The notes under the pieces: generated by a model
What the model was told of the DNA's origin: nothing
Seen by the model: the letters and a program-made list of their open reading frames with translations, nothing else
Databases searched by the model: none
Shown here: piece by piece, positions 4,299 through 19,102 of the stretch
How the letters are laid out: each line of letters opens with the position of its first letter
How positions within the stretch are numbered: position 1 is the stretch's first letter
From: a virus
DNA length: 37,417 nucleotides
UHGV virus genome: UHGV-0367149
Reading direction: 5' to 3' (one strand)
Program-made: the position numbers and the translations under genes

Positions 4299-4391
4299 TT
4301 TGTTTTAACCTCATGACAGATTTAAGGATGAACAAATCCCTGCCATTGCTGGCATATAAGAATGAAACCGGATATTTATTACGGAACTGTT

Positions 4392-4583
4392 TTAAAGACC
4401 TGCCGGGATTTCGATATTATCCTGGTGAATAACTTTATCGACCGGGTAACAGTTACCGGGAATTTTCTGTTCGGTTGCTGCAGTCATACACTCCTGCATT
4501 GTCCTGTGAACACTGACTGCAATATCAACTGGCACTCCGGAAACAAGAAAAACTGTCAGAACAAGCGCAAATGCTGAATTCAT
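4392..4583 (-). CDS. ydfD: Qin-prophage small protein YdfD
   Basis: 63-aa product from the internal ATG at 4583 (MNSAFALVLTVFLVSGVPVDIAVSVHRTMQECMTAATEQKIPGNCYPVDKVIHQDNIEIPAGL), recalled as K-12 YdfD. Start overlaps the dicB stop (ATGA). Confidence 0.7.
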   Translation of the reverse strand: MNSAFALVLTVFLVSGVPVDIAVSVHRTMQECMTAATEQKIPGNCYPVDKVIHQDNIEIPAGL

Positions 4584-4768
4584 TGTGCACATCCTTTTGG
4601 CATCAGACGTAAACGAGCCAGCATTGAAACAATGCATATTTTATTTAATAGCTCCCGTTCTTGTTTTCTCTTGTTAATGGCATCTTCAGTAAATACAGGG
4701 TTACTGATAGTGACACCAATTTCAAAACAACCTTCAGACGTATTAACGTTTGGTAATAACGTTTTCAT
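4580..4768 (-). CDS. dicB: cell-division inhibitor DicB
   Basis: 62-aa product from the ATG at 4768 (MKTLLPNVNTSEGCFEIGVTISNPVFTEDAINKRKQERELLNKICIVSMLARLRLMPKGCAQ), matching DicB as recalled. GAGGA Shine-Dalgarno 7 nt upstream. The ORF track gives a longer GTG-initiated frame. Confidence 0.85.
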   Translation of the reverse strand: MKTLLPNVNTSEGCFEIGVTISNPVFTEDAINKRKQERELLNKICIVSMLARLRLMPKGCAQ

Positions 4769-4937
4769 TATCGCGTCCTCAACAATGAATTTTGTGATGC
4801 AGTGCCTGGTGCCTCCAGGTGACGTTAACCAGTTAACAATTAACGTCGGATACAGAGAATCCACCCATAACACTGTTTTTGGTTTTAACTGTTCCGCGTG
4901 CGCTTAGCCGTATTCACCGCATCACAAAATTCACTTT

Positions 4938-4995
4938 AAAAAGGGCGGCAGAGCAGTCACGGAGTAAAACTGATACCGCCAAACGTCACCAGAAA
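4938..4995 (-). ncRNA. dicF: DicF small regulatory RNA (ftsZ-targeting), including its intrinsic terminator
   Basis: Minus-strand sequence UUUCUGGUGACGUUUGGCGGUAUCAGUUUUACUCCGUGACUGCUCUGCCGCCCUUUUU matches DicF as recalled. GC stem plus U-tract at the 3' end. Lies between the ydfB-like gene and dicB, as in Qin. Confidence 0.8.
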
Positions 4996-5254
4996 ATTGA
5001 TAACAGAGGGCGTTGCAGCGGGGTTGTCACTTAAGCGTATGGTCAACCTGACAACCCGGTGTCCTCAACGGGGAAGGAATAACCCCGCCATACTTACCGC
5101 CGCGCCATTTTGCGGGTTGCCACAACCGGAAGCGCACGGTCGAATTAAATTTAACGACACCGTACAGTGAGACGAACTTCGCCGTGCGCTTTCGTGTTGT
5201 GTGCCTGCTTTTAACCACGTCAGGCGAGGTGGTATCCTTAAAATCACCACAGTT

Positions 5255-5830
5255 TTAAGGATTCATTAAGCAATGTCGCAACCACCAATAAATCCGCTTA
5301 AGAACATGAAAATTGATTACTGGTATAAAGCTCTTACAGTTGTTGGCGCAGCGTTGTTTGTCTTTAATGGAACGTCTTTTTTTGACAGATATCCCGTTGT
5401 TCCATTGGGTTTTTTGTCCTCCGGCATCTTTTTTATTGGTTTGGGGGAGTGGATTAATCACCCTCTCATAGTGAGATTTATTGGTCCTGGAGTTTGGACT
5501 CGTGGATATAATCGTTCTTCGTGCGCACTCGGTATCATCTTCGACATACTTGGTTGTTTCCTGATTGTTACAGGAGTCGTCAAGTTCTTCTGATGTAAAA
5601 CCGCAAATGGGGCACGTAACGGGAATTTTGAAAAGCGTTTCTCCGGGTTCCAGAACAAAATTTTCTGCGGTCTGATTTTGCTTCTCATATTTGTGCTCCG
5701 CGTCATTGTGAGAGCACATTCTTATTCTGAGTGCCTGTTTAAACTCACTGAAGCTGAGAGCTTCTTCGCCTTCGGCAAGGCCTTCGAAGTATTCTTCGTA
5801 AGCCTTTTCCATGATTGTGTCGAAATCCAT
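5255..5830 (-). CDS. hypothetical protein at the ydfB/ydfC position of the dicB operon (extended ORF with a CPICG motif)
   Basis: ATG at 5830 lies 1 nt after the ydfA stop with an AGGTGAG Shine-Dalgarno. N-terminus MDFDTIMEKAYEEYFEGLAEGEEALSFSEFKQAL... is acidic and protein-like. The 3' two-thirds is low-complexity and overlaps an antisense ORF, so the true 3' end is uncertain. Confidence 0.4.
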   Translation of the reverse strand: MDFDTIMEKAYEEYFEGLAEGEEALSFSEFKQALRIRMCSHNDAEHKYEKQNQTAENFVLEPGETLFKIPVTCPICGFTSEELDDSCNNQETTKYVEDDTECARRTIISTSPNSRTNKSHYERVINPLPQTNKKDAGGQKTQWNNGISVKKRRSIKDKQRCANNCKSFIPVINFHVLKRIYWWLRHCLMNP

Positions 5831-5831
5831 A

Positions 5832-5987
5832 TCACTCACCTGAGTTTCTTTCCAGCCAGCGACGGGCACCATTTTCGGTTTTAAACGTTTTGCTTTTGGT
5901 ATACGTCATCGCGGTGAACGTGCCGTCCTGGTTGGGGAACACGCCACATACCAGAGATTCGCTGTTGCCAAGATCGATAGTATCCAT
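5832..5987 (-). CDS. ydfA: Qin-prophage small protein YdfA
   Basis: 51-aa product from the ATG at 5987 (MDTIDLGNSESLVCGVFPNQDGTFTAMTYTKSKTFKTENGARRWLERNSGE), recalled as near-identical to K-12 YdfA. Immediately downstream of the DicA-like gene. Confidence 0.72.
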   Translation of the reverse strand: MDTIDLGNSESLVCGVFPNQDGTFTAMTYTKSKTFKTENGARRWLERNSGE

Positions 5988-6179
5988 GCTGACCTCATTT
6001 CCCCTTAACGCCGGGGTAGCGGAACTGTTTGCTGAGAACACCGTGCGGTGTCTTGATGGAGGTAATTTAGTTTTCTCATTATTTTTCGTCAAGGTTTTTT
6101 GATGAGAAAACTCAAGTGTTGGCGCAAGATAAAGCCAATACATTGAAATGTAAGGCTTTAAAATTTTGTGAAGGGATGA

Positions 6180-15496: not shown

Positions 15497-15796
15497 AAAA
15501 ATTCCTTAATACTGATAACTTGGCGCACTATACACACGTTCCTGAAGAAAGCTATAGTTTTTTGATGGGGTTGAAGATGGCTGGATGTCTAAAATAAACA
15601 TTGCTTCATATGTTCAACTATGCGTTAATGATTGCGTCGGTTTGAAGAACAGACGATATACGAAGTAGTTTACTAAAGCAGTTCTCATTTCAGGTGTTAT
15701 TCACTTATTCCTTCTTTGAGTCTCTCCAATTAAGTACGAAGTCGTTTCTGTTATGCAAACCATTTATGCCGAAAGGCTCAAGTTAAGGAATGTAGA

Positions 15797-16012
15797 ATGT
15801 CAAATAAAATGACTGGTTTAGTAAAATGGTTTAACGCTGATAAAGGTTTCGGCTTTATTTCTCCTGTTGATGGTAGTAAAGATGTGTTTGTGCATTTTTC
15901 TGCGATTCAGAATGATAATTATCGAACCTTATTTGAAGGTCAAAAGGTTACCTTCTCTATAGAGAGTGGTGCTAAAGGTCCTGCAGCAGCAAATGTCATC
16001 ATTACTGATTAA
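15797..16012 (+). CDS. cspB: cold-shock protein CspB
   Basis: 71-aa [74 protein letters not shown] with canonical RNP1/RNP2 motifs. Divergent from cspF, as in Qin. Confidence 0.85.
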
Positions 16013-16294
16013 AATTCATCGCTCGTCTGTATACGATAACGAAGAAGGCTGATGCCTGAGTAGAGATACGGACAGAGTAGTGAATATTGGATCTCTTTAA
16101 TAAAAAGTAAGGAGGTCCAATACATGAAACAATGGCTAGCATATTTGGCAAAATCTTAATCAGGAAAAGTATGCTAACCATTGTGGTGAAGTGCAGGTTT
16201 GCTGCATGAATAGTTTTACAGCAGAAGCTAACTGCTGGCATGGCAAAACAAAGTGCGTAAGTGGATGACTCCCACAAAAAGCACCACAATCTCA

Positions 16295-18321: not shown

Positions 18322-18683
18322 GGTAATATTAAATCGGAACATTTACATCGCGGAATGTAAAATTTAAATAAAAAGGACTCTTCCATGAGCCAAAATTCCT
18401 GAAATCTTAAGGGTAAGATAAAAGGTCTTAATCAGAATGACACGTTTTATTAATAAATAAAGCTATTCTTTCATTGCTGTGTTTTTCTTTACAAAAGTAA
18501 TCCTTGCCATGGGTGGTTAATCATGCGTTAATGGTGTTCTGGTTTGTTACAAATTTATCTGAAGCAGTCATTGTTATAATTTTATTATTTGTACCTCTTG
18601 AGATTTCCTTGTTGGTTTTTCTCTCTGATATTTTTTTTCGGACCATTCTGCCCAAGGGCTAATTTCTTCAAAAGGTAATAATT

Positions 18684-18896
18684 ATGTCTAACAAAATGAC
18701 TGGTTTAGTGAAATGGTTTAACCCTGAAAAAGGTTTTGGTTTCATCACGCCGAAAGATGGCAGCAAAGATGTGTTTGTCCATTTCTCAGCAATTCAGAGC
18801 AACGATTTCAAAACATTAACTGAGAATCAGGAAGTTGAATTTGGTATTGAGAACGGACCTAAAGGTCCTGCCGCTGTTCATGTAGTGGCGCTTTGA
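18684..18896 (+). CDS. cspI: cold-shock protein CspI
   Basis: 70-aa [73 protein letters not shown]. Long upstream untranslated region (18322-18683), typical of cold-shock genes. Confidence 0.85.
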
Positions 18897-19102
18897 GGTA
18901 GACAATATTACAAACCATATTCACTTTAGATGCCCGTGTTGTCATGGTTCCCAGTATAGAACATCATCTTTTGATGTTTCTGACATGAATCCTTTCGGGG
19001 CAAAATGTATCTTTTGTAAATCAATGATGATTACATTTGATAATATTTCACAATACTTAAATGCCAGCCGTCTGTCGTTGGATTTAAAAAAGTGAAAATG
19101 AA

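What the first reader, a model, noticed from the sequence alone, without database searches (positions are those of the whole stretch)
5255..5872. ydfB-position gene is an extended ORF with a fully embedded antisense membrane-like ORF
Immediately after ydfA (1-nt gap, good Shine-Dalgarno) a minus-strand ORF begins that is 42 aa in K-12 as I recall, but here runs 192 aa without a stop. Its N-terminal 95 aa are acidic and contain CPICG; the remainder is low-complexity. A 106-aa ORF with three hydrophobic segments lies entirely within it on the opposite strand (5273-5593). Only one is likely to be real, or a frameshift or sequence error hides the true stop. This region is also the 5' flank from which DicF is processed.
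Basis: seen in the sequence. Interest (0 to 1): 0.4.

Follow-up and report, generated by a model that had tools for sequence, protein, structure and literature searches.

The report
Membrane gene inside a read-through ORF
Both overlapping reading frames are genuine: the plus strand encodes a conserved small membrane protein, and the minus-strand 'long ydfB' runs antisense through it in a frame that many related elements keep free of stop codons although the tail's amino-acid sequence drifts freely.

Summary
It is not a sequencing error, because about 800 complete E. coli genomes carry the same cassette.

- **Cassette.** Window 5213-5729 is a mosaic cassette that replaces the K-12 ydfB 3' end and ydfC.
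- **Plus ORF (5273-5593).** This is a real gene. It encodes a three-helix membrane protein of a large, unnamed family with invariant WYKA and GxGEWxNHP motifs. Substitutions inside it are almost all synonymous in the plus frame.
- **Minus ORF (5830-5255).** This is a chimera. The first 34 aa are YdfB. They are joined to the cassette's own small ORF, whose motif PGE..F.IP..CPxCGF is conserved with synonymous wobble.
- **Tail.** The last 112 codons run codon-for-codon antisense through the membrane gene. The tail's sequence is unconstrained and is predicted to be disordered. Yet the membrane gene lacks TTA, CTA and TCA (3-6 expected) in all ten diverged enterobacterial prophage lineages and in two of three relatives carrying the partner outside prophages. 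Relatives without this partner carry the expected number.

The most likely reason, which is inferred, is that translation must continue across the antisense gene so that the early-operon transcript survives. A functional disordered tail is the main rival.

The parts
5213..5729 (.). Mosaic cassette of 517 bp. It replaces the 3' end of ydfB plus ydfC of K-12 Qin.
   Evidence: The K-12-like locus L003 aligns to window 4300-5212 and 5730-6058 only. The cassette is present in 806 of 5426 complete E. coli genomes.
5273..5593 (+). Gene for a 106-aa three-helix membrane protein of an uncharacterised family. Invariant residues are W17 Y18 K19 A20 and G56 x G58 E59 W60 x N62 H63 P64.
   Evidence: Sixty homologues were found, down to 34% identity. 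There are 29 loci across phyla. There are 490 cluster representatives at E<=1e-3. The AF2 model has pLDDT 86.5 with helices at 17-32, 42-62 and 85-105. Substitutions are synonymous in this frame. It has no Pfam, PHROG, NCBIfam or PADLOC match.
5255..5830 (-). Chimeric minus ORF of 191 codons plus stop. It is translationally coupled to ydfA.
   Evidence: RefSeq annotates it as WP_000344958.1 in some genomes and as a ydfB pseudogene in others.
5729..5830 (-). YdfB-homologous N-terminal 34 codons.
   Evidence: These codons are identical to K-12 YdfB residues 1-34. Homology to the K-12 locus resumes at 5730. The AF2 helices have pLDDT 65-77.
5594..5728 (-). Cassette-specific, non-overlapping part of the minus ORF (residues 35-79).
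   Evidence: This part aligns with the start of the Rac-type ORF, MGIQKQQKSDGEYPYIEPGE.... SNPs fall mostly at the minus-frame third position.
5597..5650 (-). Conserved partner motif EPGETLFKIPVTCPICGF (residues 61-78). It ends one codon before the overlap.
   Evidence: The motif is conserved in the E. coli, Yersinia, Edwardsiella, Scandinavium, Roseateles, Methylomonas and metagenome lineages. Minus-frame synonymous wobble is seen (CCC/CCG/CCA/CCT, TGC/TGT, GGT/GGA/GGG, TTT/TTC). The alternative plus frame has stops here in several lineages.
5258..5593 (-). Antisense tail of the minus ORF (residues 80-191). Its codons are in register with the membrane gene. It is kept open, but its sequence is unconstrained.
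   Evidence: The plus gene has no TTA, CTA or TCA, against 5.3 expected. 29 substitutions are plus-synonymous and minus-nonsynonymous, against 5 of the reverse kind. Minus-frame identity equals that expected from plus-frame constraint alone. AF2 pLDDT is below 50.
5196..5263 (.). Conserved block upstream of the plus gene, together with a hairpin (5234-5243 pairs with 5253-5262). The hairpin contains the plus gene's Shine-Dalgarno sequence and the stop codon of the minus ORF.
   Evidence: The same block precedes an unrelated plus gene in L126. Its function and the strand on which it acts are not resolved.
5832..5987 (-). ydfA (DUF1391). This is the gene upstream in the operon.
6064..6092 (-). 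Promoter-like site for the early-left (dicBF-type) operon.
   Evidence: The site reads TTGACG-17-TAAATT. This is a consensus match only.
4943..4994 (-). DicF sRNA. It lies downstream in the same transcription unit.
   Evidence: Rfam RF00039, 76.7 bits.

Best explanation
The finding is a two-gene cassette with complete antisense overlap. It sits in the early-left (dicBF-type) operon of a Qin/Rac-like prophage, in the slot that holds sieB in Rac.

**Shown**
1. The plus ORF encodes a real, widely conserved three-helix membrane protein.
2. The minus ORF is real in its first 79 codons. It is a recombinant of the YdfB N-terminus and the cassette's own small partner ORF, which ends in PGE..F.IP..CPxCGF.
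3. The partner's frame continues, codon for codon antisense, through the whole membrane gene.
4. This frame is kept free of stop codons in many independent lineages, while its amino-acid sequence evolves as freely as the membrane protein's synonymous sites allow.

**Inferred**
- What selection preserves is translation across the antisense stretch, not the tail peptide.
- Ribosomes following RNA polymerase would keep the early-operon transcript from being terminated by Rho or degraded while it crosses about 320 nt that would otherwise be untranslated.
- The transcript could then reach dicF and dicB here, or cII-like genes in relatives.
- It would also reach the ribosome-binding site of the membrane gene as an antisense RNA. 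That would switch off the membrane gene when the lytic operon fires.
- The membrane protein itself is probably expressed in the lysogen and probably acts as an exclusion or abortive-infection factor.
For: **The plus gene is real**
- 60 homologues, some in other bacterial classes.
- Invariant motifs.
- 29 loci across phyla.
- 490 cluster representatives.
- A confident three-helix model.
- Among 83 near-identical loci, 9 of 13 SNP sites in the overlap fall at plus-frame codon position 3.
- In the window versus L123, 29 single-change codons are plus-synonymous and minus-nonsynonymous, against 5 of the reverse kind.

**The minus N-terminal part is real**
- 6 of 9 SNPs in 5594-5830 fall at minus-frame position 3.
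- The motif is conserved with minus-frame synonymous wobble across lineages.
- The competing plus frame contains stops.

**The tail is kept open**
- Stops observed against expected from the gene's own composition are 0 against 2.5-6.3 in the window, L122-124, L113, L119, L210, L212-215, L007, L006 and L216.
- Scandinavium L217 is open across its 106-codon core, although one search counts 4 stops over the 141-aa gene call.
- Relatives without the partner match the null: 17/14.8, 5/5.9, 9/9.7, 10/12.3.
- By my reading, 20 of 22 metagenomic genes with a partner motif are open across the whole core.
- Several lineage pairs have plus-frame third-position identity at the random level, so the open state is maintained independently.

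**The tail sequence is unconstrained**
- Minus-frame identity equals that of synonymous-codon randomisations for saturated pairs, p 0.2-0.96.
- AF2 pLDDT is below 50 for residues 82-153.

**Embedding in early operons**
- The gene lies next to a cI-like or DicA-like repressor in E. coli, Yersinia, Providencia, Scandinavium and Pantoea.
- It lies between cro and cII-like genes in Salmonella, Enterobacter and Citrobacter.
- There the minus ORF ends 46 nt before the cII-like start, overlaps that start, or runs in frame into the cII-like gene.
- In Roseateles it lies in an early operon headed by a Cro-like HTH gene.
- sieB occupies the same slot in Rac.
Against: - No expression data were available. 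Translation of either frame is inferred only from sequence evolution.
- The anti-termination reason has no direct support. The minus-strand RNA over the overlap is not notably C-rich or G-poor, with C/G of 0.8-1.3.
- Rac tolerates an untranslated antisense crossing of sieB, where the antisense frames are full of stops.
- The alternative cargo in L126 has only a 32-nt overlap.
- About 260 nt of untranslated RNA precede DicF in any case.
- The open frame also occurs where no downstream minus-strand gene was called, in Methylomonas L216.
- Rare alleles carry a stop with the plus gene intact: L112, L134, L263 and L122.
- In Edwardsiella the partner ends two codons into the overlap.
- The function of the membrane protein rests on position only.
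Confidence: 0.5

Rival explanations
1. True dual coding. The full 191-aa minus protein is functional, and its 112-residue polar, disordered tail is needed as a protein (for example as a spacer, a solubility or degradation tag, or a nucleic-acid-binding tail). Any amino-acid sequence compatible with the membrane gene is acceptable.
For: - Stop avoidance is maintained in many lineages.
- This includes Methylomonas, where no downstream minus-strand gene needs expression.
- In most lineages the partner's non-overlapping part is only 25-40 aa, so the tail is most of the protein.
- The antisense of a membrane protein is always hydrophilic, so a composition-only requirement would be met automatically.
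Against: - No constraint on the tail sequence exists beyond that imposed by the plus protein.
- Substitutions are overwhelmingly nonsynonymous in the minus frame.
- The tail has low-confidence structure.
- In Edwardsiella a 107-aa partner ends at CPICGFTSE, and in L122 the frame stops after CPVC. The conserved domain can therefore exist without the tail.
Confidence: 0.27
2. Only the membrane gene and the short N-terminal minus ORF matter. The long open tail is a by-product of codon usage or shared ancestry and has no selective value.
For: - 26% of 106-codon windows in the window's other genes also lack TTA, CTA and TCA.
- Some high-GC relatives without a partner motif are also stop-free.
- Rare alleles with stops exist.
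Against: - The plus gene has 41% GC. It uses other A-ending codons freely (28% of four-fold sites, and ATA three times) but never the three whose complement is a stop.
- The same holds in lineages whose synonymous sites are saturated relative to each other.
- Relatives without the partner and with similar GC carry 3-17 such codons, as expected.
Confidence: 0.08
3. Only the minus ORF is real, and the plus ORF is a shadow of it. Alternatively, the long ORF is an assembly or sequencing error that hides the ydfB stop.
For: - Gene callers and RefSeq often annotate only the minus strand.
- phrog_35040 is built on the long ORF.
Against: - The plus protein family is conserved in contexts where the antisense frame is full of stops.
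- Substitutions follow the plus frame.
- The sequence is identical in hundreds of complete genomes and viral contigs.
Confidence: 0.01

Closest known systems
YdfB and YdfC of the Qin prophage dicBF operon (E. coli K-12)
   Same: - The position is the same, directly after ydfA with a 1-nt gap.
- The first 34 residues are identical.
- The operon is the same, leading to dicF and dicB (PMC5069750).
   Different: - After residue 34 the sequence is unrelated.
- The K-12 stop and ydfC are replaced by a 517-bp cassette that carries a gene on the opposite strand.
- In some relatives (P0067, P0068, P0070) the minus frame runs on in frame into ydfC.
sieB of Rac, P22 and lambda (superinfection exclusion B), with the sas antisense RNA of P22
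   Same: - Both are membrane-protein genes on the opposite strand, inside the early-left operon.
- In Rac, sieB lies between the DUF1391 gene (ydaF, matching ydfA) and the kil/sRNA region.
- Antisense RNA control is documented for P22 sieB (PMC12197685).
   Different: - There is no sequence or Pfam relationship.
- The protein is 106 aa against 162 aa.
- The antisense frames of Rac sieB are full of stops, so sieB has no read-through ORF.
Published antisense overlapping gene pairs in E. coli and Pseudomonas (pop/ompA, ano, asa, laoB, olg1/olg2)
   Same: One ORF lies antisense to another protein-coding gene, and annotation pipelines keep only one of them (PMC7103648, PMC5960689, PMC8850804, bioRxiv 10.1101/2020.11.18.388249).
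   Different: - As far as their abstracts show, those cases rest mainly on RNA-seq and ribosome profiling. The papers themselves were not read for phylogenetic breadth.
- Here the evidence is comparative and covers many diverged lineages.
- The embedded gene is the ancient, constrained one.
- The enclosing ORF is conserved for openness only.
- This locus is not mentioned in those papers.
Rho-dependent polarity and the lambda tR1/tL1 terminators (textbook knowledge, not tested here)
   Same: - Untranslated stretches inside early operons are where Rho terminates.
- In Salmonella, Enterobacter and Citrobacter relatives the cassette sits between cro and cII-like genes. In lambda that is the position of tR1.
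   Different: - Lambda overcomes termination with N and nut sites.
- Here the proposal is that continuous translation does so.
- No rut-like composition was seen.

Membership tests
YdfB (K-12, 42 aa) | Sequence identity over the whole 42-aa protein, with the same stop | tested here: not met
   Residues 1-34 are identical. Residues 35-42 and the stop are absent, and the frame continues to 191 aa. RefSeq flags it as a partial ydfB pseudogene.
YdfB (K-12, 42 aa) | Position immediately downstream of ydfA in the dicBF operon | tested here: met
   The gap after the ydfA stop is 1 nt and a Shine-Dalgarno sequence (AGGTGAG) is present. dicF and dicB lie downstream.
SieB superinfection exclusion protein | Sequence homology to SieB | tested here: not met
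   The plus protein has no Pfam, PHROG, NCBIfam or PADLOC hit.
SieB superinfection exclusion protein | Membrane-protein gene on the opposite strand within the early-left operon of a lambdoid prophage | tested here: met
   The Rac arrangement is shown. The window arrangement is shown.
SieB superinfection exclusion protein | Aborts or excludes superinfecting phage | not testable with these tools
   This needs plaque assays. The only contextual hints are the prophage immunity-region position and an AbiH neighbour in Edwardsiella.
Antisense overlapping protein-coding gene pair | Both ORFs intact across diverged homologues | tested here: met
   Both ORFs are intact in the E. coli, Yersinia, Providencia, Salmonella, Enterobacter, Citrobacter, Pantoea, Scandinavium, Roseateles, Methylomonas and metagenome lineages.
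Antisense overlapping protein-coding gene pair | Purifying selection on the amino-acid sequence of both frames within the overlap | tested here: not met
   The plus frame is constrained. The minus frame shows only stop avoidance, and its identity equals the randomised expectation.
Antisense overlapping protein-coding gene pair | Transcription and translation of both frames | not testable with these tools
   No expression data were available, and the literature searches found no mention of this locus.
Zinc-ribbon or Lar-like small phage proteins | Two CxxC (or CxxC/CxxH) knuckles and a profile match | tested here: not met
   - Only one CxxC is conserved in the window-type partner.
- The Pfam search found no match. 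The best PHROG hit to a Lar-like family has E 0.77.
- The Edwardsiella and Scandinavium partners have an extra upstream CxxxxxxC, but they also have no significant family match.
Type I toxin-antitoxin (small hydrophobic toxin plus antisense RNA) | Toxin shorter than about 60 aa with one helix, and a short untranslated antisense RNA | tested here: not met
   The plus protein is 106 aa with three helices. The antisense transcript would be a translated ORF within an operon.
DicF precursor region | Lies upstream of DicF on the same strand, within the dicBF transcript | tested here: met
   DicF lies at 4943-4994 on the minus strand. The operon description is in PMC5069750. Processing itself is not testable here.

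The most novel reading that the evidence does not exclude
The cassette is a translation-dependent antisense switch.
- A sequence-free 'bridging ORF' lets an early lytic transcript cross a gene on the opposite strand without being terminated.
- The same transcript silences that gene.
- In a lysogen the abundant membrane-gene mRNA would do the reverse to a superinfecting relative. It would block translation of the bridging ORF and so cause premature termination of the incoming phage's early operon.
- The result would be an RNA-level exclusion layer added to a membrane-protein effector.
- Selection for an open reading frame without selection for its product would then be a general, unannotated class of feature.
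Probability: 0.2. Interest if true: 0.8.

Novelty: new variant of a known kind. Interest (0 to 1): 0.6.

Why it matters
- **Annotation.** About 15% of complete E. coli genomes carry this cassette. RefSeq annotates the same DNA in three incompatible ways: a ydfB pseudogene only, a 191-aa hypothetical protein, or a 106-aa hypothetical protein on the other strand. The comparative data show which parts are real. They also add an unnamed membrane-protein family with hundreds of clusters to the set of prophage accessory genes worth testing for phage exclusion.
- **Overlapping genes.** This is an unusually clean comparative case of complete antisense overlap. One frame is conserved for sequence and the other only for being open. 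That pattern separates 'translated' from 'encodes a functional protein', a distinction that the debate over bacterial overlapping genes has lacked.
- **dicF and dicB.** In these strains expression of dicF and dicB depends on a transcript that must cross a convergent gene.

Tried and rejected
- **Sequencing error or frameshift.** Rejected, because the same sequence is present in about 800 complete genomes and 80 viral contigs.
- **GC by codon position.** It is flat and uninformative: 0.44/0.40/0.41 for the plus gene.
- **Family libraries.** Pfam, NCBIfam and PADLOC gave nothing for either protein. PHROGs gave nothing for the plus protein, and phrog_35040 is simply the long ORF itself.
- **Neighbours of distant homologues.** They show no consistent partner or pathway.
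- **Rut-like C>G composition of the minus RNA.** Not seen.
- **Alternative coding frame for the conserved CPxCGF segment.** The plus frame whose third positions coincide with the minus frame was rejected, because it contains stops in six lineages.
- **Second zinc knuckle in the tail.** Its cysteines are not conserved.
- **Viral-contig scan with the Yersinia protein.** It found nothing.
- **Rfam.** Nothing but DicF in 4900-5900.
- **Literature.** No paper describes this ORF pair.
- **Formal pair counting for the upstream hairpin.** Not run, because the MAFFT alignment put the 3' arm out of register. Per-sequence folds were used instead.
Full report
**1. Observation**

ydfA (DUF1391) ends with TGA at 5832-5834. 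One base later an ATG (5828-5830), preceded by AGGTGAG, opens a minus-strand frame that runs 191 codons to a TAA at 5255-5257. The ORF listing reports 205 aa only because it starts at an upstream ATG inside ydfA.

K-12 YdfB is 42 aa and identical for its first 34 residues, after which the two sequences part. CPICG is at residues 73-77. Residues 1-95 are acidic (pI 4.3), and the remainder is basic and polar.

On the plus strand, 5273-5593 encodes 106 aa with three hydrophobic segments. Its codons are exactly in register with the minus codons. DicF lies downstream at 4943-4994 on the minus strand.

**2. Not an artefact; a mosaic cassette**

A K-12-like locus aligns with window 4300-5212 and 5730-6058 but not with 5213-5729. 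That 517-bp segment replaces the end of ydfB and all of ydfC.

The cassette occurs in 806 of 5426 complete E. coli genomes, nearly all at 95-100% identity, and in many viral contigs.

RefSeq treats the same DNA in three ways:
- a partial ydfB pseudogene alone;
- a 191-aa hypothetical protein, WP_000344958.1;
- a 106-aa plus-strand hypothetical protein, WP_127712993.1, together with the pseudogene.

**3. The plus ORF is a real gene**

- Its product has homologues of 100-110 aa down to 34% identity. They occur in Yersinia, Herminiimonas, Reinekea and many metagenomes.
- Invariant residues are W17 Y18 K19 A20 and G56 x G58 E59 W60 x N62 H63 P64. Conservation of N7 and L9 supports the start at 5273.
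- Genomic loci span Gamma- and Betaproteobacteria, Desulfobulbales, Nitrospirales, Arcobacter (three copies) and an Actinomycetes MAG.
- A profile search of 1.84 billion representatives finds 490 clusters at E<=1e-3.
- AlphaFold gives a confident model (pLDDT 86.5) with helices at 17-32, 42-62 and 85-105 and a hairpin at 65-79.
- The protein has no Pfam, PHROG, NCBIfam or PADLOC match, and no informative fold match.
- Evolution follows this frame. Among 83 near-identical loci, 9 of 13 polymorphic sites in the overlap are plus-frame third positions.
- Between the window and an 84%-identical Escherichia variant, 29 single-change codons are synonymous for the plus protein and nonsynonymous for the minus frame, against 5 of the reverse kind.

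**4. The minus ORF is also real, at least up to the overlap**

In 5594-5830, 6 of 9 polymorphisms are minus-frame third positions.

Immediately before the overlap the minus frame encodes EPGETLFKIPVTCPICGF. The same motif (PG.., I/F-P, CPxCG-F/C/H) sits at the same place in:
- Rac-like E. coli prophages;
- a 58%-identity lineage and Yersinia;
- Edwardsiella, Scandinavium and Methylomonas;
- Roseateles;
- metagenomic relatives.

Codon variation in the motif is synonymous in the minus frame (CCC/CCG/CCA/CCT, TGC/TGT, GGT/GGA/GGG, TTT/TTC). The plus frame that shares third positions cannot explain this, because it carries stops inside the segment in six lineages.

A second partner type, (A/F)PGSV..DG..V.L.GW, replaces the motif in Salmonella, Enterobacter, Citrobacter, Pantoea and some metagenomes.

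In Rac-like prophages the partner begins MGIQKQQKSDGEYPYIEPGE... and is the first ORF after the repressor gene. The window's residues 35-50 align with that start. The window ORF is therefore an in-frame recombinant of YdfB(1-34) and the cassette's partner.

In Edwardsiella the partner is about 107 aa. It has an extra QCxWxLKDCxMFRRWI segment and ends CPICGFTSE*, two codons into the membrane gene. Scandinavium has the same N-terminal segment but reads on.

**5. The tail is kept open but not conserved**

With codons in register, a minus-frame stop corresponds to TTA, CTA or TCA in the membrane gene.

- The window gene has 41% GC. It uses A at 28% of four-fold sites and ATA three times, yet none of its 16 Leu/TCN-Ser codons is TTA, CTA or TCA.
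- A null model built from each gene's own third-position composition predicts 5.3 such codons (P of none = 0.001). The same model fits relatives that lack the partner: observed/expected 17/14.8, 5/5.9, 9/9.7, 11/8.8, 10/12.3.
- A more conservative estimate from the window's own gene pool gives P of about 0.04. 26% of all 106-codon windows there are stop-free, mostly in high-GC late genes.
- The zero recurs in L122-124, the 58% lineage, Yersinia, Pantoea, Roseateles, Providencia, Salmonella, Enterobacter, Citrobacter and Methylomonas. It also recurs in Scandinavium across the 106-codon core.
- By my reading, 20 of 22 distinct metagenomic genes with a recognisable partner motif are open across the whole core.
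- Several of these lineages have third-position identity at the random level relative to each other (0.30-0.37 against 0.33-0.37 simulated). The state is therefore maintained independently, not inherited.
- The tail's amino-acid sequence is free. For saturated pairs, minus-frame identity and BLOSUM score equal those of synonymous-codon randomisations (p 0.2-0.96). Excess appears only in pairs that also retain excess third-position identity.
- AlphaFold gives pLDDT below 50 for residues 82-153. Only the YdfB-derived helices reach 65-77.
- Exceptions exist. L122 has TGA in place of the Gly of CPVCG. Three window-type alleles carry one stop. One metagenomic gene stops after 91 codons. The Edwardsiella gene has 8 antisense stops.

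**6. Context**

- In the E. coli, Yersinia, Providencia, Scandinavium and Pantoea lineages the membrane gene lies between the repressor gene and the early-left genes, convergent with the repressor.
- In Salmonella, Enterobacter and Citrobacter it lies between cro and a cII-like gene, antisense to the early-right operon. There the minus ORF ends 46 nt before the cII-like start, overlaps that start, or runs in frame into the gene.
- In Roseateles it lies in an early operon headed by a Cro-like HTH gene.
- In K-12 Rac the same slot, between the DUF1391 gene ydaF and kilS/kilR, holds sieB on the opposite strand. The antisense frames of sieB are full of stops.
- Another E. coli genome has an unrelated 66-aa plus gene in this slot.
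- Outside prophages the family sits among same-strand genes of unknown function, next to AbiH in Edwardsiella.

**7. Interpretation**

The shown facts are a real membrane-protein gene, a real partner ORF, complete in-register antisense overlap, and selection against stops without selection on sequence.

The reason is inferred. I favour a requirement for translation itself. Ribosomes crossing the antisense stretch would protect the early-operon transcript from Rho-dependent termination or decay. The transcript could then reach downstream genes (dicF and dicB here) and the far end of the membrane gene, where it can act as an antisense silencer once the lytic operon fires.

Points in favour:
- the embedding in early operons;
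- the close approach of the ORF's end to the next gene in the early-right lineages;
- the lack of sequence constraint;
- the Edwardsiella case, where a non-embedded partner stops at the edge of the overlap and the antisense frame is littered with stops.

Points against:
- no rut-like composition;
- Rac's untranslated crossing of sieB;
- the stop-free frame in Methylomonas, where no downstream minus gene was called;
- the complete absence of expression data.

The main rival is that the polar, disordered tail is needed as a polypeptide of any sequence. Chance is unlikely, and error is excluded.

The membrane protein's role as a lysogen-expressed exclusion or abortive-infection factor rests on position alone.

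**8. Comparison with known systems, and novelty**

- The minus ORF is not YdfB. It shares only the first 34 residues.
- The membrane protein is not SieB. It occupies sieB's slot, and P22 sieB is known to be under antisense RNA control (PMC12197685).
- Published bacterial antisense overlapping genes rest mainly on expression data, as far as their abstracts show (PMC7103648, PMC5960689, PMC8850804, bioRxiv 10.1101/2020.11.18.388249). None of them mentions this locus.
- This case is supported by broad comparative evidence and has an unusual asymmetry: sequence constraint on one strand and openness only on the other.
- I rate it a new variant of a known kind, of moderate to high interest.

Noticed in passing
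window 5196-5263: A conserved 48-nt block (GTTGTGTGCCTGCTTTTAACCACGTCAGGCGAGGTGGTATCCTTAAAA) precedes the plus gene in the E. coli, Yersinia and Scandinavium lineages, and more divergently in Providencia. It also precedes an unrelated plus gene in L126. Its end pairs with the plus gene's Shine-Dalgarno sequence (5234-5243 with 5253-5262). The distal stem covaries between lineages (UUAAAA/UUUUAA, AAAGC/GCUUU, AAAGG/CCUUU, UUCUU/AAGAA). It could be a leader that sequesters the Shine-Dalgarno sequence, a structure at the stop codon of the minus ORF, or an extended -10 element (TGgTATCCT).
   Followed up: partly
L126 2072-2606 (NZ_CP104618.1): The same slot in another E. coli prophage holds a different cargo. 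This is a 66-aa plus-strand gene whose 3' end overlaps a 121-aa minus-strand gene by 32 nt, behind the same conserved upstream block. The slot appears to be a hot spot for cargo on the opposite strand.
   Followed up: partly
L215 1979-2920 (Citrobacter); proteins P0067, P0068, P0070: In Citrobacter the open antisense frame runs 314 codons and is in frame with the cII-like gene. In some E. coli variants the minus ORF continues in frame into ydfC (245-271 aa). These may be fusion proteins, or simply loci that lack a stop.
   Followed up: no
L209 2816-3175 (Edwardsiella piscicida); L217 2591-3196 (Scandinavium): The partner ORF here has a longer N-terminal domain with a second cysteine pair (QCxWxLKDCxMFRRWI), which suggests an ancestral four-cysteine domain of about 100 aa. 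The E. coli versions look like remnants of it. An AbiH gene lies 460 nt upstream of the membrane gene in Edwardsiella.
   Followed up: partly
L015, L016, L017 (Arcobacter sp. chromosome NZ_CP182343.1): Three copies of the membrane-protein gene, with identical match statistics (38% identity, same residues and E-value), lie at distant places on one chromosome. This suggests that the gene rides on a repeated mobile element.
   Followed up: no
window 15636-16028 and 18538-18923: Two full-length matches to the cspA thermoregulator (RF01766; 158.8 and 112.8 bits) lie on the plus strand. These are presumably prophage-borne cold-shock genes.
   Followed up: no
L125 2406-2503 (K-12 Rac): In Rac an annotated sRNA, KilS, sits between sieB and kilR. 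This is the position that DicF holds relative to the cassette in the window. Both early-left operons therefore carry an sRNA just past the opposite-strand gene.
   Followed up: no
L113 about 4852-4875: The flank upstream of the conserved block in the 58%-identity prophage lineage contains a tRNA-like fragment (gctctaccaactgagctacacc).
   Followed up: no
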